Below, piece after piece: positions 11,948-43,671 of a stretch of DNA of 60,290 nucleotides. The stretch is from Candidatus Amesbacteria bacterium GW2011_GWC1_47_15 (GTDB lineage Bacteria; Patescibacteriota; Microgenomatia; CAZETR01; Amesbacteraceae). The position numbers and the translations under genes were made by a program. The notes below the pieces were generated by a model. The model saw only the letters and a program-made list of their open reading frames with translations, had not been told where the DNA came from and made no database searches. The DNA lies in contig LCNU01000015.1 of assembly GCA_001001375.1 (NCBI GenBank), positions 1 through 60,290 on the forward strand, given 5' to 3'. The number at the start of each line of letters is the position of its first letter. The stretch's first letter is position 1.

Positions 11948-12019
11948 AGCCGGCGGGGAGTTTTGCAATCCCGACCTTGGCTTTACAAAAGCCCTGCTCT
12001 GCTTCTGAGCTACGCCGGC
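11948..12019 (-). tRNA. tRNA-Thr (anticodon UGU), atypical D and T loops
   Basis: Acceptor GCCGGCG/CGCCGGC, D stem GCTC/GAGC, anticodon stem GGGCT/AGCC(A) with loop TTTGTAA. The D loop AGAAGCA lacks GG. The T arm GGGAT-TGCAAAA-CTCCC lacks TPsiC and the G53-C61 pair. Confidence 0.6.
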
Positions 12020-12909: not shown

Positions 12910-13188
12910 ATGGCATATAAATGTGATAATTGCGGCAGAGGCGTGCAATATGGTGAAACCCATACCCACGGGCGGGGTGTGGCGGGAGGCCGGTGGAAAA
13001 AAAGAGCTCCGCATACCCGCAAAGTATTTAGACCCAATCTGCATAATGCAAGAATCATGGTAAAGGGAGTCGTAACCAAAATGAAGCTATGTACTAAGTG
13101 CCTGCGCAAGCTCAAATCTCAAAGCCAGCTTGCCGTCAGGCAAGGTACAAAGCTCAAGACCGAAGAGGTTGTATCTGCCACGGTATAG
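12910..13188 (+). CDS. rpmB: 50S ribosomal protein L28
   Basis: MAYKCDNCGRGVQYGETHTHGRGVAGGRWKKRAPHTRKVFRPNLHNARI...CTKCLRK matches the L28 pattern, including the PNL motif. The start is set at the second Met of track ORF 12889..13188. Confidence 0.85.
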   Translation: MAYKCDNCGRGVQYGETHTHGRGVAGGRWKKRAPHTRKVFRPNLHNARIMVKGVVTKMKLCTKCLRKLKSQSQLAVRQGTKLKTEEVVSATV

Positions 13189-13999
13189 GATTTTTACCTT
13201 CATATTGAATTGTCGGAGGGGTCAGGGAAATAAGTTTTATTCTTTTGCCTTCCGGGTTTTCAGTCCAAACTCCGGGCCAGGGATGCAGGGCGCACCATTT
13301 GCGGGACAATTCTTTATTGTTTGTTGTCAGTTGGTCGTTGAAGGCATCCCAGGGGATAAAGCCGTCGGCACGGGTGAGCTGGCGGGCATAAAAAATGCCA
13401 TCCGACGGAATCTTTTGGGGTACCGGTTTATTTGCCCCAGCGGCGATTTTAGGTAAATTGTCGATGAGCAGATCAGCTCCAAGGTGATACAAACGGTCGT
13501 ATATTGTCTGCCGGGTATCGGCGTCCGAGATAGGGGTTTTTATTTGGGCAAGGATCGGACCGGCATCGAATCTTTCTGTCATTTTGACCAGAGTGACGCC
13601 CGTTTCCTTCTCACCCCAAAGAATCGCCCATTCGGCCGGGAAGCGGCCGGGATATCGGGGCAGAAGGGAAGCATGCATGTTTATGGCCATAATTTTGGGT
13701 AATTCCAGCCAGGCTTGAGGAAGAAGTTTGCCGTAACCGGATGCGATTAAAAAATCGGGAGGATTTTTTGAGAAGGAGAGTAGAAAAGCAGGAGAGTCAA
13801 AGTCGGCGGGAGTATGGACGGTAAGGTCGTGTTTTTCGGCGAATATTTGAACCTCAGTCGGCCTCAATTCCAATCCGCGGCCTGATGGGGAGGGAGGAGT
13901 AGTAACAACGGTTATGGATTTGTTAACCGCTAATAATCTTTCAAGTACTACGACGGAGTAGTGCCGGAAGGAGCCGAAGAAAACAATATTGAAGTCCAT
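13154..13999 (-). CDS. fmt: methionyl-tRNA formyltransferase
   Basis: 281-aa ORF. The N-terminal Rossmann sequence is IVFFGS, followed by HASLLPRYPG and the TG...VKM...DAGPI block. Confidence 0.9.
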   Translation of the reverse strand: MDFNIVFFGSFRHYSVVVLERLLAVNKSITVVTTPPSPSGRGLELRPTEVQIFAEKHDLTVHTPADFDSPAFLLSFSKNPPDFLIASGYGKLLPQAWLELPKIMAINMHASLLPRYPGRFPAEWAILWGEKETGVTLVKMTERFDAGPILAQIKTPISDADTRQTIYDRLYHLGADLLIDNLPKIAAGANKPVPQKIPSDGIFYARQLTRADGFIPWDAFNDQLTTNNKELSRKWCALHPWPGVWTENPEGKRIKLISLTPPTIQYEGKNPIPWQIQPLRS

Positions 14000-17981: not shown

Positions 17982-18695
17982 ATGGCAAATGAAATTGATA
18001 AAATAATAAGCAGGTTTGCCGGACGCCAGAAAAATAGATTACTGCAGGAAACACAAAACAGATTGACTTCGGGTAATGATCCGGAGTCAAAAATTAGCGC
18101 GGGTGCAAAAGCATTTTCAGAAGCCACTACGAGAATGGAAAGTATTAAAGGAGGCCATGTAAGGGTGTCTGAAGCTTCTGAGAGATTTTTACAAGAAGGT
18201 ACTGCGGGATTGGAGGAAATGGAAGCCCATCCTGGCTTGATAAATAATTTTGCAACAGGGTTTTTGGCATTATTCCAGGCAGTGTTCAGAGAAGAAACTG
18301 AAGAACGGCACGCGGTAGAGGTATACGGTCCCCCGGTGGCCTTGGGAAAACTGGCAAAAGAGCTCGGGTTGGATTATCAAACCGCCCACCGTTATTATTT
18401 ACAGATGATAGACAGGAGGATAATCGAAAAACCACCAAAGAAGAAAGGTGATAAATTCAGCTCTTTAATAATATCAGGTGAGGCGGCGGAATTTTTGGGA
18501 TTACTAGTTGAGCATATCGGACCGCCCAGACCGGGAAAACGGACAAATATGGACAGAACATTCAGTTGGCTTGAGGCTGAAATACAAAAAACGAAAATGA
18601 CAAAAATCGGCAGCTTAACGCCATCTCACAAACATGCAAGAGGTTGGAACGTGGATGCCGGGACTGCAGATATAGATGTAAAATCTAAAGGCTGA
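17982..18695 (+). CDS. hypothetical protein with a probable winged-helix segment
   Basis: 237-aa ORF. LGKLAKELGLDYQTAHRYYLQMIDRRIIEK looks HTH-like. Confidence 0.6.
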   Translation: MANEIDKIISRFAGRQKNRLLQETQNRLTSGNDPESKISAGAKAFSEATTRMESIKGGHVRVSEASERFLQEGTAGLEEMEAHPGLINNFATGFLALFQAVFREETEERHAVEVYGPPVALGKLAKELGLDYQTAHRYYLQMIDRRIIEKPPKKKGDKFSSLIISGEAAEFLGLLVEHIGPPRPGKRTNMDRTFSWLEAEIQKTKMTKIGSLTPSHKHARGWNVDAGTADIDVKSKG

Positions 18696-19230
18696 CTTCT
18701 TCCCACTCCTTCCCGGAGACACGAAACAGCTTGGTGTTTTGAGACAGGACGTGGTCGATGAACAGTACTCCGTTTAAGTGGTCCGTTTCATGCTGAACGA
18801 TGTGAGCTGAGAAACCGCTGAGGACAGCAGTTTTTTTTGACAATAGCCATTTACCATTTTGCATTACAGGAACGTGATATTTTATAGTAACGCTTGAGGA
18901 TCTTTTGATGGGGGCGAAATGGCGGGGAATGGATAGACAGCCTTCATAGATACCGTTTTTTGAGCTGGGATTGAGTGTACGCTGGGAGTAGCGGATGATG
19001 TCGGGGTTGATGAACAGCCGAGGTTCTTTTTTCAAGTCGGGGCGGATAAAGAAGATGCGAAGCGGTACACCGATTTGGGGAGCTGCCAGACCTACACCCT
19101 CGGGGTCCCGGGCAGCCAGAAGGGCTTTTCTCATCTCTTCAATGATCCTCAGGATCTTTTTATCTATCTTTTCCACCGGTTTGGCAACCTGGCGCAAAAC
19201 GGGATGGGGGACGGTAACAATCGGGGCCAT
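18685..19230 (-). CDS. def: peptide deformylase
   Basis: All three Def motifs are present: GVGLAAPQIG, EGCLSIP and HETDHLNG. Confidence 0.92.
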   Translation of the reverse strand: MAPIVTVPHPVLRQVAKPVEKIDKKILRIIEEMRKALLAARDPEGVGLAAPQIGVPLRIFFIRPDLKKEPRLFINPDIIRYSQRTLNPSSKNGIYEGCLSIPRHFAPIKRSSSVTIKYHVPVMQNGKWLLSKKTAVLSGFSAHIVQHETDHLNGVLFIDHVLSQNTKLFRVSGKEWEEVSL

Positions 19231-24827: not shown

Positions 24828-24900
24828 TTATTGAAAGGGTAATGCAGAAGCCTTATAGTGCGGCAGAAGGGTACTGACAATAGGTGAGGAAGCCAAAAAA

Positions 24901-25827
24901 ATGCTGGGGCGGACGCCGGCCACTATCGAGGCACTGCGGCCTTTAAAAGACGGGGTGATAGCGGATTTCGATGCCACTGAAGATATGCTCAAGCATTATA
25001 TTCAGAGGGTACATGAATCCGGACGGCTGATCCCCCGTATACCAAAACCGCGGGTAGTAGTGGGTATTCCCTCGGGGGTGACGGAGGTAGAGCGGCGGGC
25101 GGTCCAGGAAGCGGCTTTGAGCGCCGGTGCCAGGCAGTGTTTTCTGATAGAAGAACCTATGGCGGCGGCAATCGGAGCCGGACTGCCTATAGGCGATGCA
25201 GGTGGGGTAATGGTAGTGGATATCGGGGGGGGAACGAGTGAAATTGCTGTGATCTCTCTGGGAGGCATTGTGGCTAATAAATCCATCCGAGTGGCCGGTG
25301 ACGAGTTGGATGAAGCCATTATCCATTTCATCCGCCTCAAGTACAACGTGCTTCTGGGAGAAAGGACGGCAGAAGATATAAAGATTACGTTGGGAAATGC
25401 CCATCCAAACGCTTTCGGAGAGGTGCAAAGCGGCGGCGGAGACGCCGAACAGGTCAAAAAATCACAAGTGAGGTATATGGTAGTCAGGGGCAGGGACCTG
25501 GAGAGCGGATTGCCAAGGTCACTGAAAATATCGTCAGATGAAGTCAGGGAGGCAATGATGCCGGTCCTGACTCAGATCACATCTGCGGCGGCTGACCTGA
25601 TCGAAGAGACCCCGCCGGAGTTGGTGGCGGATGTACTGGAGAGGGGAATAGTAATGGCTGGCGGGGGCAGTCTGATCGCGGGCATGGACAAACTGATGAG
25701 TGAGGAGACACAGATGCCGGTGTTTGTGACAGATGATCCGATGACCGCGGTCGTCCGCGGGTGCGCCAAAGTGCTGGAGGACAATGAACTACTGAAGAGG
25801 GTGAAGGTGGTGGGAGGGTTGAGGTGA
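24901..25827 (+). CDS. mreB: rod-shape protein MreB, missing about the first 45 residues
   Basis: 308-aa ORF starting at MLGRTPATIEALRPLKDGVIADF. The in-frame upstream codons 24859-24900 still read (VLTIGEEAKK) and then hit TAG at 24856-24858. The phosphate-1 motif DLGTANT is absent. Confidence 0.85.
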   Translation: MLGRTPATIEALRPLKDGVIADFDATEDMLKHYIQRVHESGRLIPRIPKPRVVVGIPSGVTEVERRAVQEAALSAGARQCFLIEEPMAAAIGAGLPIGDAGGVMVVDIGGGTSEIAVISLGGIVANKSIRVAGDELDEAIIHFIRLKYNVLLGERTAEDIKITLGNAHPNAFGEVQSGGGDAEQVKKSQVRYMVVRGRDLESGLPRSLKISSDEVREAMMPVLTQITSAAADLIEETPPELVADVLERGIVMAGGGSLIAGMDKLMSEETQMPVFVTDDPMTAVVRGCAKVLEDNELLKRVKVVGGLR

Positions 25828-28177: not shown

Positions 28178-28669
28178 CTATAATGATTTGGAAATCAGGA
28201 TTTTCCGGTATGCCAGACCTGAGGAGATCAGGAGGAGGGCAGCCCCGGATATGATGAGGGTATATTCGAATGAGCCGGCGACGGGGGTAGAGGAGGTTTC
28301 CAAAGTCCCGTCCACATCCTCCGGCAGCGGCCCGTTTGTAAGGGTGAAGCTTTTGGAACCGGAGGGAGCGGAAAATGACAGGGTATGGTCACCTGCCGAT
28401 AAAGTCAATGTGTGGCTCCAGCTGCCTTGGGCATCTGCCACAGCGGAATAGGCGGTGCCATCCACAGTAACGGAAACCGTTTCTCCCGGAGCGGCGCTGC
28501 CGGTGACGGTCACATTGCCGGAGTTGTACCAAAGATGGTTAAAGCCCGAAGCCGAGACATCCAGGGTCCCCACGCTTTTGATATAAAATGTCCCCGCGCG
28601 AGCGGACTGGGCGAAAGCGAAACTTAAAAACACGAGAAGTAAAGCGCAGGAAAAAAATCTTCGGAGCAT
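28178..28669 (-). CDS. secreted Ig-like protein with C-terminal hydrophobic anchor and basic tail
   Basis: 163-aa ORF. It has the signal peptide ...AFAQSARA, a beta-rich core and the C-terminus PVAGSFEYTLIISGAALLLISSGLAYRK. Confidence 0.6.
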   Translation of the reverse strand: MLRRFFSCALLLVFLSFAFAQSARAGTFYIKSVGTLDVSASGFNHLWYNSGNVTVTGSAAPGETVSVTVDGTAYSAVADAQGSWSHTLTLSAGDHTLSFSAPSGSKSFTLTNGPLPEDVDGTLETSSTPVAGSFEYTLIISGAALLLISSGLAYRKILISKSL

Positions 28670-28731
28670 GTCTGTTTCTATTACACCGCCCGGCAGGTGT
28701 AAATGTCAAGGCTTGATAACAGGGTGTTACA

Positions 28732-31705: not shown

Positions 31706-32302
31706 TTGATGAGAAGGGGATTGTTTATTGTCCTATACGGACCTGCTGGTGTGGGGAAGACCCAGCAGCTGGAGATATTGGAAGATACCATGGCGAGAAT
31801 GGGCGTGCATGTGCGGCGGATTAAATACCCGCTCTACCGGTTGGAGCCGACAGGACCGAAGTTGTACGGAATTCTGCATAGGAAGGAGATAGCACCGGAT
31901 GAAGATGAAATGCAAAAAATGTTTGCCCAAAACAGGAATGATTTCGAGCCTACCTTGAGATCATGGCTGGATTCCGGTGTGACCGTACTGGCCGAAGACT
32001 ATAAAGGGACAGGCGTAGCCTGGGGAATGGTAAGGGGACTCCCGCTTGAAAAGATGGAAGAGCTAAACGATGACCAAACCCAGCCGGATCTGGCTATATA
32101 TTTAGACGGACCCCGGCGGATGGAAAGCCCTTTGGAGCCGCACATGTATGAGGATGAAGAGGAATGGTATAAGGTGCGCAAGGTCATGCTGCAGTTGGCG
32201 GACCGCTACGGGTGGATACGGGTGGGGGGAGATGCGCCTATTCTGACCGTGGCAGGGAGAATTTTTGCCGTGGTCAAACCCCTGGTGACGGTGATGAGAT
32301 AG
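31706..32302 (+). CDS. thymidylate-kinase-family P-loop nucleotide kinase
   Basis: 198-aa ORF. It has LFIVLYGPAGVGKTQ (P-loop) and a DxxGxxxW / PDLxxYLD layout like Tmk-type kinases. Substrate not determinable. Confidence 0.7.
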   Translation: MMRRGLFIVLYGPAGVGKTQQLEILEDTMARMGVHVRRIKYPLYRLEPTGPKLYGILHRKEIAPDEDEMQKMFAQNRNDFEPTLRSWLDSGVTVLAEDYKGTGVAWGMVRGLPLEKMEELNDDQTQPDLAIYLDGPRRMESPLEPHMYEDEEEWYKVRKVMLQLADRYGWIRVGGDAPILTVAGRIFAVVKPLVTVMR

Positions 32303-32317
32303 GCAGTCTTCAGGCTT

Positions 32318-32740
32318 CTATTTGTATTGTGAGTAAAACTTCATGATCAAATATGCGGGAATAATACCTAAAGTTTCGGTAACTATATCTGAAGTGTTGA
32401 CGGGTCCGTTTCTGAATGTGGCCTGCAGATACTCGGTTGCGGTGATAAGCCCGATCGCGGCCAATCCCGCGGTATTTAAGATCGTTTTTTCGGAAATCTT
32501 GTCTGAAAGCAGGTTGTCCATGGCCAAGGTAATGCCGAAAAAAGTGATGAATGACTGAATGGCATTAGGGGCGCTGTCGAATGAGGCCAGACTGCATAGA
32601 CTTTCCGGATTTGACTCCAGGCATTTTTTTTCAATAGAATTCCAGGGTACTATACCCCTGACTAGATATTTGCCGAGTATTCCGGATGTATAAAACCTTA
32701 CCAACGAAAAACCAGCTTCTATTGTTTTATTTTTCAGCAC
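32318..32740 (-). CDS. hypothetical membrane protein
   Basis: 140-aa ORF with several hydrophobic helices. Confidence 0.55.
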   Translation of the reverse strand: MLKNKTIEAGFSLVRFYTSGILGKYLVRGIVPWNSIEKKCLESNPESLCSLASFDSAPNAIQSFITFFGITLAMDNLLSDKISEKTILNTAGLAAIGLITATEYLQATFRNGPVNTSDIVTETLGIIPAYLIMKFYSQYK

Positions 32741-32857
32741 ACGCGTAGTATATTATAGGTTTTATTAAAATACAATAATGATAATGAATTATAGGACGTA
32801 AAAGGATATTATTTAAGGATATATGCGAAGGTAGGAGCGGACGATCCGATAGACAGG

Positions 32858-33118
32858 GTGGCAGCAATGCCGAAAAGCGGAAAAAATCTAGATGAAATCT
32901 TAATAAGGGCATATAAAAAGGGTTGGCGGACGATTGCAGGGATAAACTTTGAAGGCGAAGAGCAAATGGTGCGGGTACTGCCTGGATCTGAAGGAATTTA
33001 CAGGCTGGCTGACCAGGGCGGTATACGGATGACTGTGGATGCGGAAAGTCTATTTGGAATGCTTTGGGTGGAAGAAGGGTGGAAAAGATTGATATTTCTG
33101 GTGCCGGAAAAGAAGTAA
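32858..33118 (+). CDS. hypothetical small protein
   Basis: 86-aa ORF, preferred over the overlapping low-complexity minus-strand ORF 32727..33149. Confidence 0.35.
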   Translation: MAAMPKSGKNLDEILIRAYKKGWRTIAGINFEGEEQMVRVLPGSEGIYRLADQGGIRMTVDAESLFGMLWVEEGWKRLIFLVPEKK

Positions 33119-33197
33119 ACGTGAACGGATACCAGGGAACGGGAATCATGGGAATATTAATGTTGCTTTAAGTTGGTTTTTTTGGTAGAAAGTTGGC

Positions 33198-33830
33198 ATG
33201 CCTGCCATCGAACAGGAGATTAGAGTAAACGGTAAACTAATGGTGGCGCATTTTGTACCCGGTTATACGGAAGAGAGAAACCTGCTGTATGACCAAAAGG
33301 TAGTTCCCAAAGAGGAGTTGGCTGGATGGGGTGAGGCATTGAAAAGAAGACACAGGAAAAAAGTCTTTACAACCGGGGCGTATGATGTGATTCATTTGGG
33401 ACACATCCGTTATCTGCAGCTAGCCGCCAGCCTGGGAGACGATTTGATGGTAGGCCTTAATAGCGACTCCTCGGTACGGACATATAAAGGCGAGGGTAGG
33501 CCGGTTCAGGAGGAGACGGAAAGAGCCGAATTATTGTGCGGATTGACTTGTGTAGGATTTATCACAATATTCGACGAATTAACCGGTGCGGAAACGATTA
33601 GGTTGTTCAGACCTGACGTTTACTTGTGTGTGGAAGGAAGTTGGGAAGGGGATTTGGGATCTAAGGAAGAAGTGATTGCAATGGAGGAAGTAGGAGGGGA
33701 AGTGTGGTGCTGCCCCAGGCAAGGGCCGACAATCTCTACAACTGCAATTATCGAAAGGATAGAGAGAAAGTATGGTGAAAGAATCATGGGTGATTTCAAA
33801 CAACTGATTCAAGGTGATAAACATGAATGA
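33198..33830 (+). CDS. cytidylyltransferase-family nucleotidyltransferase (RfaE domain II / TagD-like)
   Basis: FTTGAYDVIHLGHIRYL is the (H/T)xGH nucleotidyltransferase signature. There is an N-terminal ~55-aa extension. Confidence 0.8.
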   Translation: MPAIEQEIRVNGKLMVAHFVPGYTEERNLLYDQKVVPKEELAGWGEALKRRHRKKVFTTGAYDVIHLGHIRYLQLAASLGDDLMVGLNSDSSVRTYKGEGRPVQEETERAELLCGLTCVGFITIFDELTGAETIRLFRPDVYLCVEGSWEGDLGSKEEVIAMEEVGGEVWCCPRQGPTISTTAIIERIERKYGERIMGDFKQLIQGDKHE

Positions 33831-34311
33831 AAAAGACGATTTTTCCACAGATAATCAATTAAATTTGAGATTGAGGGGCGGATATGAAAAATTGGCTGAA
33901 AAAATCCTGAAAAATGGCTGCCCGTTTTGCAATTTGAAGGAAAAATATATTTTGGCCGAAAAGGACGGGCTGGTATTAACTGTAAATATTTTTCCTTATA
34001 TTGACGGGCAACTGATGGTAATACCACGCAGACATATAAAGAGTTTTGAAGAAGTGACGGTAGAAGAGACGGTTACCAATTATTTCCTTTCACAATTAGC
34101 AATAACCTTATTAAGAGAAGAACTGGGAGTAAAGGGGGTGTGGATGCTGCTGCGGGATGGGGGGTTAGGCAGCGAATCAGGCAAGACGGTGGAGCATTTG
34201 CACTGGAATATTCTGCCTTATACAGACAGCCTTAATACCTGGCATCATCAGGAGCTCAGTGTTACTCCGGCGGAGATGGCAGTAAGGCTCAGGAGTAAAA
34301 TAGACAAATGA
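33814..34311 (+). CDS. HIT-superfamily protein with variant triad HLHWN
   Basis: 165-aa ORF. FCNL...IFPYIDGQLMVIPRRH...VEHLHWNILP fits a HIT/GalT-like layout. It overlaps its neighbours, consistent with translational coupling. Confidence 0.7.
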   Translation: MINMNEKDDFSTDNQLNLRLRGGYEKLAEKILKNGCPFCNLKEKYILAEKDGLVLTVNIFPYIDGQLMVIPRRHIKSFEEVTVEETVTNYFLSQLAITLLREELGVKGVWMLLRDGGLGSESGKTVEHLHWNILPYTDSLNTWHHQELSVTPAEMAVRLRSKIDK

Positions 34312-35084
34312 AAAATCAGGAATATCTGGTAATAGACGAGTCGGAGATATCGTGCAAGAATCTGCCCCGGATAGCGGAGGCGGTGGCCCAGGCCAGGCTG
34401 GGAATGGTGCTGGTAATGCCGGTATGGCAATTGCGGGAGGGTCTTCGGGGCTTTGCCAAAGCCCAAATAATTCGGGCGATTCATCCGGAAATTGTCCAAA
34501 CCTTGGGAATGGGTGAACAGCAATTGCAGGCATTGATCCGGAGGGAATCAGGAGTGTTCCGAATGGGACCACTGCACAAAACAAACGAAAGGTGTTTTGG
34601 AGTCGGGATTTCTAAACATAATCCGGAAATACAAGAAACGGATTTACCCCAAGATCGTAGATGGATGAAAAAAGCAAAAGAGTTGATCGATAAAAGCAAC
34701 TGCTGGTACTTTCCGACTGCATGCGTATTCGTGAGAAACGGGCGGGTGGCATGTGAAGGAGTGTCTACCTCTTACAATCACTCGGAATGTAAAAAAATCC
34801 CCATGTCGTTTACGGACCTTAAGCTTAACGATGGCGAACGATTGATATTTTGTGATTCCCAGCATGCAGAACAGCAGGGGGTTTCGGCCGCAGCCGCCAG
34901 GGGAGTTAGCCTGGAAGGGACGACAATGTACCTGCAGAAATTTCCCTGCCGGCCCTGCATGCAAGCTTTAATAGGTGCAGGGGTAAAGCGAATGGTTTAT
35001 GAGATCGGGTCGTACGGTTTGCCGGACTTGCCGCTACTGCTGAAAAACGGGATTGAGGTACAGAAATTGACACGGCAAGTTTAA
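34308..35084 (+). CDS. deoxycytidylate (CMP/dCMP) deaminase-family zinc enzyme with ~120-aa N-terminal extension
   Basis: The C-terminal half has CDSQHAEQQ (H-A-E) and PCRPCMQAL (PCxxC). The N-terminal 120 aa have no recognisable motif. Confidence 0.8.
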   Translation: MKNQEYLVIDESEISCKNLPRIAEAVAQARLGMVLVMPVWQLREGLRGFAKAQIIRAIHPEIVQTLGMGEQQLQALIRRESGVFRMGPLHKTNERCFGVGISKHNPEIQETDLPQDRRWMKKAKELIDKSNCWYFPTACVFVRNGRVACEGVSTSYNHSECKKIPMSFTDLKLNDGERLIFCDSQHAEQQGVSAAAARGVSLEGTTMYLQKFPCRPCMQALIGAGVKRMVYEIGSYGLPDLPLLLKNGIEVQKLTRQV

Positions 35085-35917
35085 AGGGCGACCGGTATCT
35101 TCATTGCAGGGTGGGCTTGATAATCGTGAAGCTGGAAATCTTCCACCCGGTGGTCGAAGATGGTGCCGGAGGGGGAATCAGATATAGTCACACGGGGTCT
35201 GGGGTAAGGTTTCCTTTTTAATAATTCTTTCATAGCGGGTATTTGGAATTCGTAGACGTGAGGAAGGTGAAAGTTTATTGCAAGTTCACCGGGCGGAAGA
35301 CTCAATTCCTTGGCAAACATCATCAGCCAAAGCGCGTGTTGGGCAGTGTCGAAGGGAACGCCAACGCCTATATCGGCACTTCGCTGGTCATAACCCAGGT
35401 TGAGTTTTCCATCAAGGACGACAAAATGCAGATCCAATATGCAGGGCGCGACATCGACCACATTGGTGCAGTCGGGGTTCACCACGTCACCCAGGTTCCA
35501 ATAACTGATAACTGCCTTTCTGGTCCGGGGATCCTTTTTAAGCATATCCAGTACCCGGACAAGCTGGTCGGTTTTTCCGGCAAAATTTCTTAACTGGTAG
35601 CCGTAAGTAGGACCGAGTTCTCCGTTTTTGTACCCCAATTTTTCTTCAGCCGCCTTAGCCCATTTTAGCCAGAGTTTGGAACCATAATTATTAAGCAGAT
35701 CGTATGCATTTGTACTTCCGGACATGATCCACAATTTCTCAGCGACCAATGTGGGCCATGCCTGGCTCATATCCCGGGTAGTGATTAAAGGAAAACCATC
35801 TTCCAAGTTATAACGGACAGTACGAAAAAAAGCATCAATTGATTTTTCCGGTTTTTGGCTCTCACGGTATTTGCCATTAGTGAGTACATCTTCCACCAAG
35901 TCCAGATACTCAATCAT
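35081..35917 (-). CDS. thymidylate synthase (ThyA)-fold enzyme with Asp at the Asn177-equivalent position; predicted (d)CMP methylase/hydroxymethylase
   Basis: 278-aa ORF aligning without gaps to E. coli ThyA in the core. Conserved blocks are DGFPLITTR, LWLKWA, GPTYGYQ, DPRTRK, APC (Cys159), QRSAD and HVY. PFD(190)TAQHAL replaces PFN(177)IASYAL. Confidence 0.9.
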   Translation of the reverse strand: MIEYLDLVEDVLTNGKYRESQKPEKSIDAFFRTVRYNLEDGFPLITTRDMSQAWPTLVAEKLWIMSGSTNAYDLLNNYGSKLWLKWAKAAEEKLGYKNGELGPTYGYQLRNFAGKTDQLVRVLDMLKKDPRTRKAVISYWNLGDVVNPDCTNVVDVAPCILDLHFVVLDGKLNLGYDQRSADIGVGVPFDTAQHALWLMMFAKELSLPPGELAINFHLPHVYEFQIPAMKELLKRKPYPRPRVTISDSPSGTIFDHRVEDFQLHDYQAHPAMKIPVAL

Positions 35918-35992
35918 GAAAGCATATTAAACGCAATAAAAGGAAATAGTCAAGGGATGTATAATCAGCTCCATGGCGGAGGATGAATAGAT

Positions 35993-36232
35993 ATGAGCAG
36001 AGAGCTGGAGTTTAATATTTACAGGCGAGCGATGGGGATAAGATGGCAAGATGATTTAAAACTCGTGGGGCAACTGACGGAAGATTTTTATTTTAAGCAA
36101 AAAAAACGTGGTATTAATATCCCGCAGCCTACGATCATTCTGGGAGCAGATTTGACAGAGTGGGAAATCAGAGCGAAGGGGTCTGCAATGATGAGTGCAA
36201 ACAAGGTAAAAGCGTGGGGGATTAAGGTATAA
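35993..36232 (+). CDS. hypothetical small protein
   Basis: 79-aa ORF between the ThyA-like gene and glyA. Confidence 0.4.
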
Positions 36233-36233
36233 T

Positions 36234-37367
36234 TTGGGGATGGCGAAGCAAAAAAGGGACAAAACATTTGAATTGATCGAAAAAGAGACACAGCGGCAAA
36301 ACGATACTTTGCAAATGATTCCCAGCGAAAATTACGCTTCAGCGGCCGTACGTGAAGCGATGGGAAGTGTATTTACGAATAAATATGCCGAGGGGTATCC
36401 GGGAAAGAGATATTACCAGGGAAACGAAGTAGTGGACGAATTGGAGAATCTTTGCCGTGAGAGTGGGAAGCCAGCATTACCGGTGAGTACCGCAAGACTG
36501 TGCATTATTTTCTGGACCAAAATGGGGAAGTAGATTGGGAGCAGCTGTACCGGCTGGCGCGGGAGCACAAACCCAAACTAATTTGGTCGGGAGGGACGGG
36601 TTACACCAGGATTTTCCAGTGGGAAAAATATGCCCGGATAGCAGATGAAATCGGGGCGTATTTTGTGGCGGACATTTCCCACATCGGCGGATTGGTTGCC
36701 GGAGGAGTTCATCCGTCACCTGTGCCGTTTGCGCATGTGAGAAAAGGGGAAGAAAAAAGATAGCGAGTTGGAGAGCAAGATAGACAAGGCTGTTTTTCCC
36801 GGAGTACAAGGAGGGCCGCATATGGAAAACATCGCCGCTTTGACCATAGCACTCACAGAAGCCAGCACTCCCGGGTTTGGAACATACGCCAAACAAATAG
36901 TGATAAATGCAAAAGCCCTGGCGACGTATTTATCATTTAACAATTATCATTTGATCGGCGGAGGGACGGAAAACCATATGATCTGGATTGATCTGACGAA
37001 TAAGGGGATTGACGGATGGAGCGCGGCGTGGGCTTTGGAATACGCCGGGATAATTGCCAACAGACAGACAGTGCCGGGGGAGAAAAGATCCCCATATTAT
37101 CCTTCCGGGCTGCGTCTGGGGACGCCGGCAGTAACGACCAGGGGAATGAAAGAGGGGGAAATGCTGTTGATAGCGCAGTGGATAAATAACGTTATATCCA
37201 ATCTTCAATATTCAATGTCCAATAAATATAAAGATATCGGGAGCGATGATAAAAAGAAGGATCAGGTGGCCAGAAAACATTTTAAGCTGGAGATGAAAGA
37301 GGATAAGAAACTGCTTGAGACCGCGGGGGAAGTAAAGGAATTGTGCCGGAAGTTTCCTGTAAAATAG
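36234..37367 (+). pseudogene. glyA: serine hydroxymethyltransferase broken into three frames with two internal segments missing
   Basis: Track ORFs 36234..36533, 36500..36763 and 36768..37367 carry N-terminal, middle and C-terminal SHMT sequence (IPSENYAS...YPGKRYYQG; HKPKLIWSGGTGY...ADISHIGGLVAGGVHPSP; KIDKAVFPGVQGGPHM...). The segment after ENLCRE is absent (~55 aa), and so is the PLP-lysine block (TTTTHKTLRGPRGG). Confidence 0.85.
37197..37223. repeat. CAAT-heptad element inside the glyA C-terminal fragment
   Basis: TCCAATC TTCAATA TTCAATG TCCAAT. It contains the same 12-mer and 11-mer found in topA. Confidence 0.85.
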
Positions 37368-37371
37368 ATGC

Positions 37372-38148
37372 ATGGTAATAATCTTTGACGGGAGAACCTT
37401 TGCGGATAAAGTGTCGGAAAGCATCGGAATCAAGGTTAGAGGGTTGAAGCTGGTATCGATATTCGACCCGGATAATCCCGGGAGTGTGGCATATACAAAG
37501 ATAAAAGAGAAAAAAGCGGGAGAACTCGGGGTAGATTTTGAAAAAATTCAAAAAACTAATGATAAAGAACTGATCAAAAATAAAATTCATGATCTAAATG
37601 CCGATAAAGATGTAAACGGGATAATCGTGCAGATGCCTCTGGGATTCGGGGATGAGGATATGGAAATTGCCGGAATTATAAGCCCGAAAAAGGATGTGGA
37701 CGGACTCAATCCTTATTCCGGAGTGATGCCGGCAACGGTTCGCGCCGTCACGGAAATTTTAAATTCTATTAACGAGGCCCCAGATTCCAGACAAAAATTA
37801 TGTGTCTTAGGAAATTTGGGAATGGTCGGCCGGAGAATGCAGGAAGAGCTGGAAAATACGGGCAAATACGATGTTGAGGGGATGGATAAAGAGGATTTTG
37901 ATCCCGAAAAGATCCGGGAAGCGGACATCGTGATCAGCGCAACCGGACAGGCGGGACTTATAAAGCCAGAAATGGTGAAAGCGGGTGTAATTGCTATAGA
38001 TGTAGGCTTCCCGGTGGGTGATTTCGACCCGGCAATTGCTCAAAAAGCGGCATTTTTTACCCCGGTCCCGGGAGGAGTGGGACCGGTGACGGTGGCGATG
38101 CTGTTTGCCAACCTGGCTGAACTTATTTCAAAGAGAATTAAAAACTGA
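37372..38148 (+). CDS. folD: bifunctional methylene-THF dehydrogenase / methenyl-THF cyclohydrolase
   Basis: 258-aa ORF with YTKIKEKKAGELG, GIIVQMPL, DVDGLNP and PVPGGVGPVTVAML. Confidence 0.9.
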   Translation: MVIIFDGRTFADKVSESIGIKVRGLKLVSIFDPDNPGSVAYTKIKEKKAGELGVDFEKIQKTNDKELIKNKIHDLNADKDVNGIIVQMPLGFGDEDMEIAGIISPKKDVDGLNPYSGVMPATVRAVTEILNSINEAPDSRQKLCVLGNLGMVGRRMQEELENTGKYDVEGMDKEDFDPEKIREADIVISATGQAGLIKPEMVKAGVIAIDVGFPVGDFDPAIAQKAAFFTPVPGGVGPVTVAMLFANLAELISKRIKN

Positions 38149-40496: not shown

Positions 40497-42119
40497 GTGT
40501 TTGATAAGAGTATTTTAAAATGGCTGGTTTTGCTGTGTGTCTGGTTTGCCTTTTTTGTCAGCATCGGGGTGTACCGGGGCGGCTACCAAGGGTGGTATTT
40601 CGGAGTATGGTTGGGGACCCAGTTATTGTTCCCTGTCGTGACATGGATTTATGAGAAGACCATTTTCAAATTAAATTGGAAAAAAGTATTTACTGCTCTT
40701 CTGATATGCCTGCTGCCGGTACTGTTGAGAGAAACATTAGCCATCCCGGGGCGGATAAACGGGGATGATATTAATACAGCTTATTTTACGGTTATCACCG
40801 ACTGGAGAAGCATAAATATGTTTTCCGGGATTCCCGCCGATAAGCTGAAATGGGTGTCGCAGTTTCCAGTGCCTTTTTTCCTGTTCCAGAAAATATTTTT
40901 CAATGTGTTTGGGGAAAATTTTGACACGGTACGACGATCAGTACTGCCGTATGTCTATATTGTTTCTCTGGGAGTGTATTATATTGCGGATAAATGGTGG
41001 GGGTGGAAAGCGGCAGTCGCAGCGGTGGTGTTTTATGCGTTTCTAGCCCCGAGCATGTATCTGGAGACTTTAGGCCTGCATTTTGTTTCGAGCACGGCAA
41101 TTTTTACAGTATTTGCAGCATGCGTCGTGGCCTTTTTGTACAAACCGGATCGAACTACCGCTGCCGCCGCCGGTCTGGCGGCAGGCTGGTGTTATTTATT
41201 TTATATTACTTCCTATATTGCTCTCGGGGTGTTGGGTGTGGCCTGGCTGGCTGTAGCTGTGAAGAATCCCCGCGACGGTTTCAGGCTGTTTATTTGGAGT
41301 ACTATCGGGGCAATGCTTGTCCTGGGCCCGTTTGTCGGATACGCACTGGGCGTGGACAATTATTTCGGTGTGCGGATGGGGCAGGTAAAGTTTGTGCCCT
41401 CCGAAGCAATATCACCCGCCCGGTCGAGACTGATGCATCTTAAGGCAACCATAAGGTCGATGTATACTCCGGGGATCGGCGGGGCGGGGGGTTACAACTT
41501 CGGTGGTCAGGCTTTTTTGGAGCCGGTAAGCCTGGCCCTGCTGTCTACCGGGCTGATACTGGTTCTTTACCGGACCCGGGGAGGTTTTTTTGTACCAGTG
41601 ACTCTTCTGGGGGCATTTACGGCAGCAGCAGTTTCAGCCTGGCCGCCGGCATTCCACAGGATGTCTCTGGGATTTCCGGCGCTGGCATTGGCGATGGCAG
41701 CATCAGTTCATCATCAAAAAAAGCTGCTTTTGAATGCGGGGTGGTGGTGGGCAGTGGCGGTAATTTTGACATACACTGCAGCTAACCTTGATTTATGGAA
41801 AAAAATGGCTTATGAAACCGGGGTGAACCACGATATATCGCTGGCCCGTCACCTGACGGAAAATTTCCCCGACAGAACCATCCGGATGGCAGCTTTTCCG
41901 GGGTACGTCTTTGAAAGGATGTACCGTTTTTTTCCGGGTAGCAACCGGCCAATTCTGGAAACGGATTATCATGCGAATTTGTTAAACAGATTCACCCCGG
42001 ACGAAAAGTATGTGTATGCCATGATTTACGCTGAAGAATTCGGTCCGAAGTTTCAGGCAATGGACCCGGTAGGGAAACTATACAGGTATTCAGATGTGTA
42101 CAGTATATTCGCCAATTGA
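40497..42119 (+). CDS. polytopic membrane protein, possibly GT-C glycosyltransferase (ArnT/PMT-like)
   Basis: 540-aa ORF with about 11 TM helices and a soluble C-terminal domain. The family call is from architecture only. Confidence 0.7.
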   Translation: MFDKSILKWLVLLCVWFAFFVSIGVYRGGYQGWYFGVWLGTQLLFPVVTWIYEKTIFKLNWKKVFTALLICLLPVLLRETLAIPGRINGDDINTAYFTVITDWRSINMFSGIPADKLKWVSQFPVPFFLFQKIFFNVFGENFDTVRRSVLPYVYIVSLGVYYIADKWWGWKAAVAAVVFYAFLAPSMYLETLGLHFVSSTAIFTVFAACVVAFLYKPDRTTAAAAGLAAGWCYLFYITSYIALGVLGVAWLAVAVKNPRDGFRLFIWSTIGAMLVLGPFVGYALGVDNYFGVRMGQVKFVPSEAISPARSRLMHLKATIRSMYTPGIGGAGGYNFGGQAFLEPVSLALLSTGLILVLYRTRGGFFVPVTLLGAFTAAAVSAWPPAFHRMSLGFPALALAMAASVHHQKKLLLNAGWWWAVAVILTYTAANLDLWKKMAYETGVNHDISLARHLTENFPDRTIRMAAFPGYVFERMYRFFPGSNRPILETDYHANLLNRFTPDEKYVYAMIYAEEFGPKFQAMDPVGKLYRYSDVYSIFAN

Positions 42120-42599: not shown

Positions 42600-43671
42600 A
42601 TGCCGACGTGGCTGATTTTTATCATTTTATTGTCTATTCTGGTACTGGTCCACGAACTGGGCCATTTCCTGGCCGCCAGAATATTGGGGATTAAGGTAGA
42701 AGAGTTTGCACTCGGGCTGCCTTTTACCAAACCGCTGGTAAAAATACAAAGGGGAGAGATCCAGTACGCAGTATACCCTGTTTTTTTCGGCGGTTTCGTA
42801 AAGCTTTACGGAGAAGATAAGGAACCGGAGGGGGTCAAGGCGGATAAAAAAGATATCGGCCGTGATTTCTGGAGCAGGGGAAAAAAACAACGCATTGTGG
42901 TGATAGCGGCCGGAGTAGTAATGAATGTGGTATTGGCGGTGGGGGGATTTGTTTTGCTTTATTCCGTAGTGGGGGTGCCGCGTAAAACCATACAAAAAGT
43001 AACTGTAGCCGGGGTGGAAATGGATTCTCCTGCACAGGAGGCTGGGATAACAGAAAACGACCGTGAATCTGACTTTGGAAAGAGGCAGCGGCACCCCACT
43101 ATTTGAGGGAATTGTGGAAGGAGAGATTCAAAGGCAAATATTAAGCGTTGTCCCCCGTAAGAATCCTCCGGAGGGAAAAGGGGCACTGGGAGTGATGATT
43201 TCAGCCTATCCGTATCTGACTACAGAGAAATGTTCAATGACCAATGTCCAATGTTCTATAGGCGCATTGGAGCAAGGATTTAAAAGTACAAAAATTTGGA
43301 TAGATCGTGTATTTGAAGGCTTGAGAGGCATAGGCGGGAGCCTGGTACGGGGGAAAGCGCCGGAAGGGGTATCCGGACCTTTCGGTATTTATCAGCTGAC
43401 CGACACGGTAGCGGCTTACGGCTGGCTGCCGATACTGGAGCTTCTGGCTATTCTGTCCATCAACCTGGCGGTTTTTAATATCCTGCCAATACCGGCACTG
43501 GATGGGGGAAGAATGTTTTTTGTCGGACTGGAGTGGCTGATGCAAAAGAGAATTCCTGCAGAAACAGAGCAAAAAATAAATTCCTGGGGAATGGCGTTTC
43601 TGATTACACTGATGGTACTGGTATCCCTTCAGGATGTGATCCGGCTAGGGGTAATGGAAAGAATTTTTTAA
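42600..43671 (+). pseudogene. rseP: RseP-type M50 site-2 protease split by a frameshift inside the PDZ domain
   Basis: Track ORFs 42600..43106 (HELGHFLAA...SPAQEAGITENDR) and 43063..43671 (VNLTLERGSG...NILPIPALDGGRMFF). The junction near 43060-43064 lacks the middle of the PDZ domain and changes frame. Confidence 0.8.
43231..43257. repeat. CAAT-heptad element inside rseP
   Basis: TGTTCAA TGACCAA TGTCCAA TGTTCT. It contains CAATGTCCAAT (43242-43252). Confidence 0.85.

What the first reader, a model, noticed from the sequence alone, without database searches (positions are those of the whole stretch)
31706..38148. Nucleotide and one-carbon gene cluster around the Asp-variant TS homolog: possible 5-methyl/hydroxymethyl-dCMP route
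Within 6.4 kb lie the following genes:
- a Tmk-family kinase (31706-32302)
- a cytidylyltransferase-fold enzyme, a HIT protein with an H-x-H-x-N triad, and a dCMP-deaminase homolog with an unexplained ~120-aa N-terminal extension; these three overlap each other at 33814-33830 and 34308-34311
- the TS homolog, convergent on the deaminase so that the two stop codons overlap (35081-35084)
- glyA and folD, the suppliers of CH2-THF.

Inference, option 1: dCMP is converted to 5-methyl-dCMP by the Asp-variant TS, then deaminated to dTMP by the neighbouring deaminase. dCMP deaminases are known to accept 5-substituted dCMP. This would be a thymidylate route that bypasses dUMP.

Inference, option 2: the cluster makes a modified cytosine nucleotide for DNA, as in phage hypermodification clusters.

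glyA is broken in this assembly, which complicates either reading.
Basis: inference. Interest (0 to 1): 0.65.

Follow-up and report, generated by a model that had tools for sequence, protein, structure and literature searches.

The report
Asp-variant thymidylate synthase module in CPR bacteria
This is the conserved thymidylate-making gene cluster of a candidate-phyla-radiation bacterium, and its "thymidylate synthase" carries the residues of phage enzymes that methylate dCMP, so thymidylate is probably made by methylating dCMP and then deaminating it, without going through dUMP.

Summary
All the genes, the overlaps and the broken glyA are at the stated coordinates.

The cluster is not a one-off. 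A module of TS homolog, DHFR, HIT protein, long (about 275 aa) dCMP-family deaminase and HldC-like nucleotidyltransferase recurs in 16 further CPR (Patescibacteria) loci. It usually lies between topA and glyA-folD-rpsB.

The window's TS has Asp at E. coli position 177 and Ile at 147. Published work found these to be the two positions that best separate cytosine-modifying TS homologs from true TS. It keeps the ThyA C-terminal folate arm. In most relatives it is co-transcribed with DHFR, as in phage Xp12 (TS, deaminase, DHFR operon), whose enzyme makes 5-methyl-dCMP.

Sister CPR lineages carry the same module with Asn177. Asp arose at least twice inside the CPR clade.

The best reading is dCMP to 5-methyl-dCMP to dTMP, a cellular housekeeping version of the Xp12 route (confidence about 0.5). 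This is inference; no substrate was tested. Ordinary dUMP chemistry is the main rival. A DNA-hypermodification cluster is not supported.

In this window DHFR is absent. glyA has lost two coding blocks, including the PLP-lysine loop; that is either an assembly fault or real decay. The roles of the HIT protein, the nucleotidyltransferase and the deaminase N-domain remain unexplained.

The parts
31706..32302 (+). Tmk-family nucleoside-monophosphate kinase, divergent subfamily. It has 'AEDY' where Tmk has 'DRY'. The P-loop GPAGVGKT and the F-x-x-x-R thymine-contact motif are kept.
   Evidence: PF02223 39 bits. Best PDB matches are thymidylate kinases 3HJN and 2V54. A 57%-identical orthologue lies at the same position in the Amesbacteria locus L012 and shares 'AEDY'.
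33198..33830 (+). HldC/RfaE-domain-II-like nucleotidyltransferase (HxGH motif 'IHLGH'). It is a conserved module member that always lies directly upstream of the deaminase. Acceptor substrate unknown.
   Evidence: PF01467 and TIGR02199 124 bits. PDB 5X9Q scores 78 bits. Adjacent to the deaminase in all 17 loci compared.
33814..34311 (+). HIT-family protein with H-x-H-x-N in place of H-x-H-x-H. It overlaps both neighbouring genes.
   Evidence: PF01230. The motif 'HLHWNILPY' aligns to 'HLHVHVVPR' of PDB 6AF2. N or Q at the third position is conserved in subfamily A, which comprises window, L001-3 and L011.
34308..34655 (+). N-terminal domain of the deaminase. It is predicted to be a small Rossmann-like beta-alpha-beta-alpha-beta-alpha-beta fold with the conserved motif Q..GLRGFAKAQI. 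Function unknown.
   Evidence: AlphaFold models give pLDDT 80-94 over residues 1-80. No significant PDB match was found; best Foldseek E 0.04. No Pfam or PHROG hit. Conserved columns are shown.
34656..35084 (+). Zinc deaminase domain of the dCMP-deaminase family. HAE and PCxxC motifs are present. The stop codon overlaps the TS stop codon.
   Evidence: PF00383 61 bits. Best sequence and fold matches are dCMP deaminases 4P9C, 1VQ2 and 2HVV. Motifs 'SQHAEQ' and 'FPCRPC'.
35081..35917 (-). Thymidylate-synthase homolog with Asp at E. coli position 177 and Ile at 147. The catalytic Cys, E58, Y94, D169, H207, Y209 and the C-terminal folate arm are kept. Predicted dCMP 5-methylase.
   Evidence: PF00303 222 bits. 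35% identity to E. coli ThyA over the full length. Residue tables. Comparisons with T4 gp42 and Xp12 TS.
35918..36233 (.). Spacer between the TS gene and glyA, where relatives carry DHFR. No DHFR remnant is present. It holds a 79-aa ORF (35993-36232). An independent contig of the same strain diverges from the window at 36015.
   Evidence: tblastn with seven CPR DHFRs finds nothing in the window. L009 is 99.8% identical over 32126-36015 and then unrelated. No Rfam family was found.
36240..37367 (+). glyA (SHMT) in three frame-shifted pieces. Two coding blocks are missing: about 64 aa, and about 20 aa that include the PLP-lysine loop.
   Evidence: Pfam SHMT profile positions 6-81, 145-225 and 263-399 are matched. 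tblastn with L002 SHMT maps residues 1-78, 143-233 and 254-457. Sequence read.
37372..38148 (+). folD (bifunctional methylene-THF dehydrogenase / methenyl-THF cyclohydrolase), intact.
   Evidence: PF00763 and PF02882. 45% identity over the full length to L007 FolD.

Best explanation
The stretch is the Patescibacteria (CPR) thymidylate and one-carbon neighbourhood.

**The module.** Its core is a conserved module with these members:
- a TS homolog;
- DHFR (lost or unassembled in this window);
- a HIT protein;
- a long dCMP-family deaminase;
- an HldC-like nucleotidyltransferase.

glyA-folD (the CH2-THF supply) and a Tmk-family kinase flank the module.

**Proposed mechanism.**
1. The Asp177/Ile147 TS homolog binds dCMP instead of dUMP. 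It transfers and reduces the methylene of CH2-THF, giving 5-methyl-dCMP plus dihydrofolate. This is why relatives have a DHFR partner.
2. The convergently encoded deaminase deaminates 5-methyl-dCMP to dTMP. Alternatively it acts on 5-methyl-dCTP after phosphorylation.
3. The Tmk-family kinase takes dTMP onward.

The net effect is thymidylate made from dCMP without a dUMP intermediate. This is a cellular, housekeeping counterpart of the route known from phage Xp12.

**Shown:** gene content, residue states, conservation of the module, independent Asn-to-Asp switches, and the DHFR partnership in relatives.

**Inferred:** the substrate of the TS homolog, the substrate of the deaminase, and the direction of flux. 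The roles of the HIT protein, the nucleotidyltransferase and the deaminase N-domain are not explained. One possibility is supply of dCMP from dCTP, or regulation.
For: **1. Residues**
- Asp replaces N177 and Ile replaces H147.
- The MetaGPA paper found positions 177 and 147 to be the two top discriminators between TS homologs of cytosine-modified and unmodified contigs. It cites the N177D / N229D mutants that switch TS from dUMP to dCMP.
- The Xp12 5mdCMP-forming enzyme has D177 and P147.

**2. Chemistry**
- The window protein aligns to E. coli ThyA end to end (E 3e-56), including the C-terminal arm ending in PVAL.
- T4 dCMP hydroxymethylase lacks that arm and matches only at E 4e-5.
- DHFR lies directly beside the TS gene in 13 of the other loci and at the far side of the module in L015. 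It was not found within the flanks of L013 and L093.
- Xp12 also has a TS, deaminase, DHFR operon.

**3. Partner**
- The deaminase is adjacent or convergent to the TS gene in all 17 loci compared.
- dCMP deaminases are reported active on 5mdCMP and 5hmdCMP.
- In phage contigs, 70% of deaminases in modified contigs lie within 3 kb of a TS gene.
- 5 of 7 Asp-type TS homologs tested made 5mdCMP, and the authors propose the in-cis deaminases make dTMP from 5mdCMP.

**4. Evolution**
- Asp177 is fixed across a deep CPR clade of 38-65% identity, together with I/V147.
- It arose a second time in a young Jorgensenbacteria-like clade nested among Asn types.
- The rest of the module is unchanged in both cases.
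- This is what is expected if methylation and deamination can be done in either order to give the same product.

**5. Kinase**
- The Tmk-family kinase keeps the F-x-x-x-R motif that contacts thymine O4 in known Tmks (the residue role is from established Tmk structures).
- That fits dTMP rather than 5mdCMP as the nucleotide passed on.
Against: - No enzyme was assayed. Specificity is inferred from two residues and from analogy.
- 2 of 7 Asp-type phage enzymes did not give 5mdCMP in the published test.
- Sister lineages run the same module with Asn177, so the module by itself does not require dCMP methylation.
- One Asp-type locus (L007) has a dUTPase gene inside the cluster, which would feed dUMP.
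- In this window DHFR is missing and glyA is broken, so the route may not run in this strain as assembled. L093, a 62%-identical Asp-type relative, also has no DHFR within 10 kb.
- The published 5mC-selective phage deaminase acted on triphosphates, not monophosphates, so the level at which deamination occurs is open.
- The deaminase differs from characterised dCMP deaminases. It has an extra N-domain, and 'SYNH' stands where the allosteric G(Y/W)N(A/G) motif lies.
Confidence: 0.5

Rival explanations
1. Ordinary thymidylate synthesis. The deaminase makes dUMP from dCMP, and the Asp-variant enzyme still methylates dUMP. A protonated Asp would stand in for Asn. The Asp is then a tolerated or neutral variant in this lineage.
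For: - The same five-gene module occurs with Asn177 in eight sister loci.
- A dUTPase gene lies in the cluster of Asp-type L007.
- The protein passes the NCBIfam thymidylate synthase model TIGR03284 (181 bits, cut-off 108).
- It is closest to true ThyA proteins.
- All other catalytic residues are kept.
Against: - Asp177 is fixed over a deep clade and is coupled to loss of His147, which is not the pattern of a neutral variant.
- Published mutagenesis (N177D in E. coli, N229D in L. casei) switches preference to dCMP (cited).
- Most natural Asp-type enzymes tested made 5mdCMP.
Confidence: 0.27
2. Xp12-like DNA modification in a cell. 5-methyl-dCMP is phosphorylated and incorporated into DNA, giving bulk 5-methylcytosine. 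The deaminase diverts part of the 5-methyl-dCTP pool to dTTP.
For: - In phages, the pairing of an Asp-type TS with a deaminase is strongly associated with cytosine-modified genomes.
- Xp12 uses the same TS, deaminase, DHFR trio.
- A divergent Tmk-family kinase of unknown specificity lies 3 kb away.
Against: - The chromosomal context is housekeeping, and base composition is even.
- The same module occurs with Asn-type TS in sister lineages.
- No dCTPase/MazG or DNA-modification genes are in the cluster or the 60-kb window.
- The kinase keeps the thymine-contact motif.
- No modification data are available.
Confidence: 0.08
3. The TS homolog is a dCMP hydroxymethylase that regenerates THF and needs no DHFR. 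It would make 5-hydroxymethyl-dCMP, which the deaminase would turn into 5-hydroxymethyl-dUMP or which would be used for DNA modification.
For: - Asp at position 177, as in T4 gp42.
- No DHFR in the window or within 10 kb in L093.
- dCMP deaminases accept 5hmdCMP.
Against: - The protein keeps the roughly 50-residue ThyA C-terminal folate arm that gp42 lacks.
- It matches gp42 only at E 4e-5, against 3e-56 for ThyA.
- DHFR is the immediate neighbour of the TS gene in most Asp-type relatives.
- No glucosyltransferase or similar enzyme is nearby.
Confidence: 0.05
4. In this particular strain the pathway is decaying or switched off, and thymidylate comes from salvage. glyA is a pseudogene and DHFR has been deleted.
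For: - glyA lacks two coding blocks, including the PLP-lysine loop.
- DHFR is absent.
- rseP is split and mreB lacks its first ~49 codons.
- A syntenic relative (L097) has no module at all between topA and glyA.
Against: - TS, deaminase, HIT, nucleotidyltransferase and folD are intact and keep their catalytic residues.
- fmt in the same window needs the one-carbon pool.
- An independent contig of the same strain breaks exactly between the TS gene and glyA, so the lesions may be assembly faults.
Confidence: 0.1

Closest known systems
Phage Xp12 dCMP methyltransferase, deaminase and DHFR operon. The 'new thymidylate biosynthesis' of Kuo et al. 1982 and the 5-methyl-dCTP deaminase of Wang & Ehrlich 1982, as cited. 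Genome MT664984 44377-46195.
   Same: - TS-fold enzyme with Asp177 and a non-His residue at 147.
- Encoded beside a dCMP-family deaminase and, in the CPR relatives, a DHFR.
- Proposed outcome is thymidylate by deamination of a 5-methyl-dC nucleotide.
   Different: - Only 29% identity between the TS proteins (E 2e-21). The window protein is closer to E. coli ThyA at 35%, so the Asp state arose independently inside the CPR ThyA clade.
- The context is a cellular housekeeping locus, not a phage.
- The deaminase carries an extra ~115-aa N-domain.
- HIT and nucleotidyltransferase genes belong to the module.
- There is no evidence that the DNA carries 5mC.
Canonical ThyA-FolA thymidylate cycle with dCMP deaminase (ComEB/DCTD type) and GlyA
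   Same: - Same fold, catalytic Cys and folate arm.
- DHFR partner in relatives.
- SHMT and FolD next door.
- A dCMP-family deaminase supplies or finishes the pyrimidine.
   Different: - Asn177 is replaced by Asp, and His147 by Ile.
- R21 is not conserved.
- The predicted order of the two steps is reversed.
- The deaminase has an added domain.
- DHFR is absent and glyA is broken in this window.
T4 gp42 dCMP hydroxymethylase
   Same: Asp at the specificity position and a catalytic Cys.
   Different: - gp42 lacks the C-terminal folate arm.
- It is 23% identical over 155 residues (E 4e-5).
- It works with a dCTPase, a dNMP kinase and glucosyltransferases, none of which are present here.
Metagenomic phage pairs of a 5mC-selective deaminase with an Asp-type TS (bioRxiv 10.1101/2024.12.05.627091)
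   Same: Co-localisation of a PF00383 deaminase with an Asp177 TS homolog, and the proposed role in making thymidine nucleotides from 5-methyl-dC nucleotides.
   Different: - Those are phage contigs predicted to have modified DNA.
- The characterised enzyme needs triphosphates and also acts on DNA.
- The CPR deaminase belongs to a different, longer architecture.

Membership tests
Thymidylate synthase ThyA (EC 2.1.1.45) | TS fold with catalytic Cys146 and the conserved E58, Y94, D169, H207 and Y209 | tested here: met
   PF00303 222 bits. Full-length alignment to E. coli ThyA, and the residue table.
Thymidylate synthase ThyA (EC 2.1.1.45) | Asn177, which reads O4/N3-H of dUMP, together with His147 | tested here: not met
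   Asp and Ile at these positions. Conserved in about 45 closest homologs.
Thymidylate synthase ThyA (EC 2.1.1.45) | C-terminal folate-closing arm and production of dihydrofolate (DHFR partner) | tested here: inconclusive
   The arm is present, ending in PVAL. DHFR is adjacent in most relatives but absent from this window and from L093.
Thymidylate synthase ThyA (EC 2.1.1.45) | Methylates dUMP | not testable with these tools
   Needs an enzyme assay.
dCMP methyltransferase (Xp12 type, EC 2.1.1.54) | TS fold with Asp at position 177 and a non-His residue at 147 | tested here: met
   Window has D177/I147. Xp12 has D177/P147.
dCMP methyltransferase (Xp12 type, EC 2.1.1.54) | Encoded with a dCMP-family deaminase and a DHFR | tested here: met
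   Xp12 operon. CPR module. DHFR is lacking in the window itself.
dCMP methyltransferase (Xp12 type, EC 2.1.1.54) | Common descent with the phage enzymes | tested here: not met
   29% identity to Xp12 TS. No phage hit above 37.5%. The window protein nests within CPR ThyA proteins, with Asn-type sisters.
dCMP methyltransferase (Xp12 type, EC 2.1.1.54) | Forms 5-methyl-dCMP from dCMP and CH2-THF | not testable with these tools
   Needs an assay. 5 of 7 natural Asp-type enzymes did so in the literature.
dCMP hydroxymethylase (T4 gp42 type) | Asp at the specificity position, a short protein without the ThyA C-terminal arm, and no DHFR requirement | tested here: not met
   Asp is present, but the full C-terminal arm is kept. 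Match to gp42 is E 4e-5 against 3e-56 for ThyA.
dCMP deaminase (DCTD / ComEB / T4 Cd) | Zinc site H-A-E ... P-C-x-x-C in a CDA fold, with closest relatives being dCMP deaminases | tested here: met
   'SQHAEQ' and 'FPCRPC'. Best sequence and fold hits are 4P9C, 1VQ2 and 2HVV.
dCMP deaminase (DCTD / ComEB / T4 Cd) | Allosteric G(Y/W)N(A/G) motif and a single-domain protein of about 150 aa | tested here: inconclusive
   The motif position reads 'SYNH'. An extra ~115-aa Rossmann-like N-domain is present.
HIT superfamily | Histidine triad H-x-H-x-H-x-x | tested here: not met
   H-L-H-W-N: the third His is replaced by Asn (Gln in L002). The fold family is still matched, PF01230 34 bits. This resembles the H-x-H-x-Q transferase/phosphorylase branch; that comparison is from my own knowledge.
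Serine hydroxymethyltransferase (GlyA) | Continuous reading frame of about 410-460 aa that includes the PLP-binding lysine loop | tested here: not met
   Three frame-shifted pieces. Orthologue residues 79-142 and 234-253 are absent.
dTMP kinase (Tmk) | P-loop, D-R-Y/H motif, and a score above the equivalog cut-off | tested here: not met
   The P-loop is present, but 'AEDY' replaces 'DRY'. TIGR00041 scores 44 bits against a cut-off of 83.

The most novel reading that the evidence does not exclude
A large clade of cellular organisms (Microgenomates-type CPR bacteria) uses an Asp-type 'ThyA' as a dCMP methylase. Besides making dTMP by deamination, part of the 5-methyl-dC nucleotide pool would leak or be channelled into DNA. 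These bacteria would then carry sequence-independent 5-methylcytosine introduced at the nucleotide level, a trait so far known only from phages.
Probability: 0.08. Interest if true: 0.9.

Novelty: new variant of a known kind. Interest (0 to 1): 0.6.

Why it matters
- **New route in cells.** If the inference holds, a whole branch of the candidate phyla radiation makes thymidylate without dUMP. That route has been documented only in phage-infected cells.
- **Consequences for the cell.** It would lower the dUMP/dUTP pool. In very small genomes this could relax the need for dUTPase and uracil repair.
- **Annotation.** Pipelines would be mislabelling these proteins: this one passes the NCBIfam thymidylate synthase equivalog.
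- **Unassigned partners.** The conserved module also contains three partners with no assigned role in any known thymidylate pathway: the HIT protein, the HldC-like nucleotidyltransferase and the deaminase N-domain.
- **Testability.** The claim can be tested directly with two recombinant proteins and LC-MS.

Tried and rejected
**Identity of the deaminase N-domain**
- The full-length model matched only deaminase domains.
- The domain-only model gave no significant PDB hit, best E 0.04 to generic Rossmann folds.
- There were no Pfam or PHROG hits.
- hhalign of the subfamily-B N-domain ('PVIHxGY') against the nucleotidyltransferase put the motif on HxGH, but at E 0.028 and probability 1.8%. I treat this as inconclusive.

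**Scan of genome contigs with a clade alignment**
- The pattern chosen was too general (600+ hits), so only about 8 CPR loci were recovered and no close relative.

**Search for a DHFR remnant, dut, tdk or CTP synthase in the window**
- tblastn with relatives' proteins found nothing.

**Search for a riboswitch in the TS-glyA spacer**
- No Rfam family was found apart from tRNAs.

**Search for an intact same-strain glyA in the protein database**
- There was no near-identical SHMT; the best hit was 70% identical.
- Many short SHMT hits turned out to come from indel-rich long-read assemblies.

**Covariation between TS type (Asp/Asn) and deaminase residues**
- Only two columns separate the two sets, and neither is in a known active-site motif. 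There are too few independent contrasts.

**Literature**
- No paper links Patescibacteria to dCMP-type TS.
- Hardy & Nalivaika 1992 could not be opened, so that mutagenesis is cited through.

**Readings rejected**
- Phage or mobile origin of the cluster. The best phage hits are ordinary TS at 37.5% identity or less, and base composition is even.
- Anti-phage dCTP deaminase. NF041025 scored 37 bits against a cut-off of 400.

Full report
**1. What is in the sequence**

The window is a CPR/Patescibacteria chromosome segment. Its gene order is mreB, PBP2, topA, the cluster under study, rpsB, tsf, frr, rseP. It also carries fmt, def, tgt, queA, dnaX, recR and cysS. Base composition is even across the window.

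- Tmk-family kinase, 31706-32302.
- CTP_transf_like nucleotidyltransferase, 33198-33830.
- HIT protein, 33814-34311, with motif HLHWN.
- PF00383 deaminase, 34308-35084. The domain starts only at residue ~115.
- PF00303 TS homolog, 35081-35917, on the minus strand.
- Three SHMT pieces.
- folD.

The overlaps are real. CT and HIT overlap, HIT and the deaminase share ATGA, and the deaminase and TS stop codons share TTTAAA.

Against E. coli ThyA, the TS homolog reads 'GVPFDTAQ' where ThyA reads 'GLPFNIAS'. That is Asp at position 177. It also has Ile at position 147.

**2. The cluster is a conserved module, not a local accident**

I examined gene neighbourhoods of Asp-type homologs at 41-64% identity: L001, L002, L003/4, L005/6 and L007/8. 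I then added CPR genomes from the species collection: L012-L016, L019 and L026. I also added a JGI contig, L093.

All show the same set:
- The TS homolog.
- A long (273-285 aa) deaminase.
- A nucleotidyltransferase directly upstream of the deaminase.
- A HIT protein.
- DHFR in 14 of the 16 other loci. It lies directly beside the TS gene in 13 of them and at the far side of the module in L015. It was not found in L013 or L093.

The module usually lies between topA and glyA-folD-rpsB-tsf-frr. In the Jorgensenbacteria-like loci (L005, L010) it survives in a different chromosomal context.

The deaminase and the HIT protein each come in two subfamilies:
- Subfamily A: window, L001-3 and L011. The HIT motif is HxHxN/Q, and the HIT gene lies between the nucleotidyltransferase and the deaminase.
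- Subfamily B: all the others. The HIT motif is HxHxH, and the HIT gene lies after TS-DHFR. The deaminase N-domain carries 'PVIHxGY'.

Two distant HIT subfamilies are therefore recruited at different positions of the same module. This suggests that a HIT activity belongs to the pathway. I could not assign it a reaction.

A syntenic relative, L097, has topA followed directly by glyA with no module at all. The module is therefore gained or lost as a unit.

**3. What the TS homolog is**

It is a ThyA-type enzyme:
- 35% identity and E 3e-56 to E. coli ThyA over the whole length, including the C-terminal folate arm ending in PVAL.
- 23% identity and E 4e-5 to T4 dCMP hydroxymethylase, which lacks that arm.
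- 29% identity and E 2e-21 to the Xp12 TS homolog.
- No phage protein exceeds 37.5% identity.

C146, E58, Y94, D169, H207 and Y209 are kept. N177 is Asp, H147 is Ile, and R21 is not conserved.

The MetaGPA study found positions 177 and 147 to be the two positions that best separate TS homologs of cytosine-modified contigs from those of unmodified contigs. It summarises the mutagenesis showing that Asn-to-Asp switches TS from dUMP to dCMP. The Xp12 enzyme, which makes 5mdCMP, has D177 and P147.

DHFR next to the gene in relatives, and in Xp12, argues that dihydrofolate is produced. That means reductive methylation, not hydroxymethylation.

**4. Evolutionary pattern**

In a neighbour-joining tree of the CPR clade, Asp177 appears twice:
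- A deep clade with D177 plus I/V147. It contains the window, P0001-P0030, P0034 and P0040-48, and spans Woesebacteria- and Amesbacteria-labelled genomes.
- A young clade with D177 plus H147 (P0032, P0033, P0035, P0038, P0039). It is nested among Asn-type proteins that are up to 77% identical.

Eight loci with Asn177 (L010, L011, L013-16, L019, L026) carry the same module. The TS type does not follow the A/B subfamilies of the deaminase and HIT protein.

Two conclusions follow:
- The module is the general CPR thymidylate module, not a DNA-hypermodification cassette.
- The Asn/Asp state can flip without changes in the partners. This is expected if methylation and deamination commute to the same end product, dTMP.

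**5. The deaminase and its partners**

The catalytic domain has HAE and PCxxC motifs. Its best matches by sequence and by fold are dCMP deaminases: cyanophage S-TIM5 (4P9C), T4 (1VQ2) and S. mutans (2HVV).

dCMP deaminases are reported active on 5mdCMP and 5hmdCMP.

A preprint shows that phage deaminases co-localised with Asp-type TS are linked to making thymidine nucleotides from 5-methyl-dC nucleotides. 5 of 7 such TS homologs made 5mdCMP. The one deaminase characterised in detail preferred 5mdCTP.

The N-terminal ~115 residues fold, by prediction, as a small Rossmann-like domain with a conserved Q..GLRGFAKAQI motif. No structural or sequence relative was found.

The nucleotidyltransferase is closest to HldC/RfaE domain II and to ethanolamine-phosphate cytidylyltransferase.

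The kinase is Tmk-like but has 'AEDY' in place of 'DRY'. An Amesbacteria orthologue shares this.

**6. State of the locus in this window**

- DHFR is absent. tblastn with seven CPR DHFRs found nothing.
- glyA has lost about 64 and about 20 codons, with frame changes. The second block is the PLP-lysine loop.
- rseP is split, mreB lacks its first ~49 codons, and dprA is absent.
- An independent contig of the same strain (L009) is 99.8% identical over 32126-36015 and then unrelated. The TS-glyA junction is therefore a breakpoint between assemblies.
- No same-strain SHMT exists in the protein database.

I cannot tell whether these lesions are assembly faults or real decay.

The 60-kb window holds no thyX, second thyA, dut, dcd or tdk. 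The rest of the genome could not be searched.

**7. Verdict**

- The most likely mechanism is dCMP to 5-methyl-dCMP (Asp-type TS, CH2-THF from GlyA, DHF recycled by DHFR), then to dTMP (the long deaminase), then to dTDP (the Tmk-family kinase). Confidence is about 0.5.
- The main rival is ordinary dUMP methylation by a tolerated Asp variant (0.27).
- Incorporation of 5mC into DNA (0.08), hydroxymethylation (0.05) and a decaying locus in this strain (0.10) remain possible.
- The route itself is known from phage Xp12 and related phages. What is new is its apparent fixation in a housekeeping module of a large clade of cellular organisms, together with three conserved partners of unknown role. No paper linking this to Patescibacteria was found.
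- I rate it a new variant of a known kind, with interest 0.6.

Noticed in passing
window 42600-43671; 24865-25827; 28178-28731: Other genes look damaged relative to CPR orthologues. rseP (M50 peptidase) is split into two ORFs with about 26 codons missing. mreB lacks its first ~49 codons, which hold the phosphate-binding N-terminus. dprA, which lies between PBP2 and topA in relatives, is absent. Together with glyA, this suggests either assembly faults or genome decay.
   Followed up: partly
L097 3034-6708 (ENA ERZ1286166 contig_3771): In a syntenic relative, topA is followed directly by glyA-folD-rpsB, with no TS, deaminase, HIT, nucleotidyltransferase or kinase genes. The thymidylate module is therefore present or absent as a unit. 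That assembly is indel-rich, and nearly every gene is split.
   Followed up: partly
L005, L007, L010, L012-L016, L019, L026 versus window, L001-L003, L011: The module exists in two versions. They have non-alignable deaminase N-domains: 'PVIHxGY' against 'Q..GLRGFAKAQI'. They also have distant HIT subfamilies: HxHxH placed after TS-DHFR, against HxHxN/Q placed between the nucleotidyltransferase and the deaminase. The split is independent of the Asn/Asp state of the TS.
   Followed up: partly
P0034, P0040-P0046, P0048 (e.g. L007 8001-8876): In one Asp-type subclade the otherwise invariant phosphate-binding Arg166 is Gly ('QGSADV'), and an Arg appears two residues after the catalytic Cys ('CIRY'). 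This may be a compensating relocation. R21 is not conserved in any CPR member, whether Asn or Asp type.
   Followed up: no
L007 11239-11682 and L008 5625-6068: A dUTPase gene sits inside the cluster (topA, dut, nucleotidyltransferase, deaminase) of an Asp-type lineage. This bears on whether dUMP is still used there.
   Followed up: no
L003 4555-6669; L093 8200-9849: A large fusion protein of about 700 aa with deoxynucleoside kinase (dNK) and thymidine kinase (TK) domains lies directly upstream of the TS gene in Woesebacteria-type loci.
   Followed up: no
window 31706-32302 and L012 13421-14011: The Tmk-family kinase has 'AEDY' in place of the catalytic 'DRY' motif in both the window and an Amesbacteria genome. 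L007 has a canonical 'LDRY' Tmk.
   Followed up: partly
window 11948-12019 (-): Rfam calls a fourth tRNA here (48.9 bits) that ARAGORN does not report.
   Followed up: no
window 1776-4754, 56780-58570, 40497-42119: Three large ORFs (992, 596 and 540 aa) have no Pfam match. The 540-aa one is a multi-pass membrane protein by appearance.
   Followed up: no
window 13154-13999 (-), 18685-19230 (-): Methionyl-tRNA formyltransferase and peptide deformylase are present. The organism therefore needs 10-formyl-THF from the GlyA/FolD branch, which makes a truly dead glyA harder to accept.
   Followed up: no
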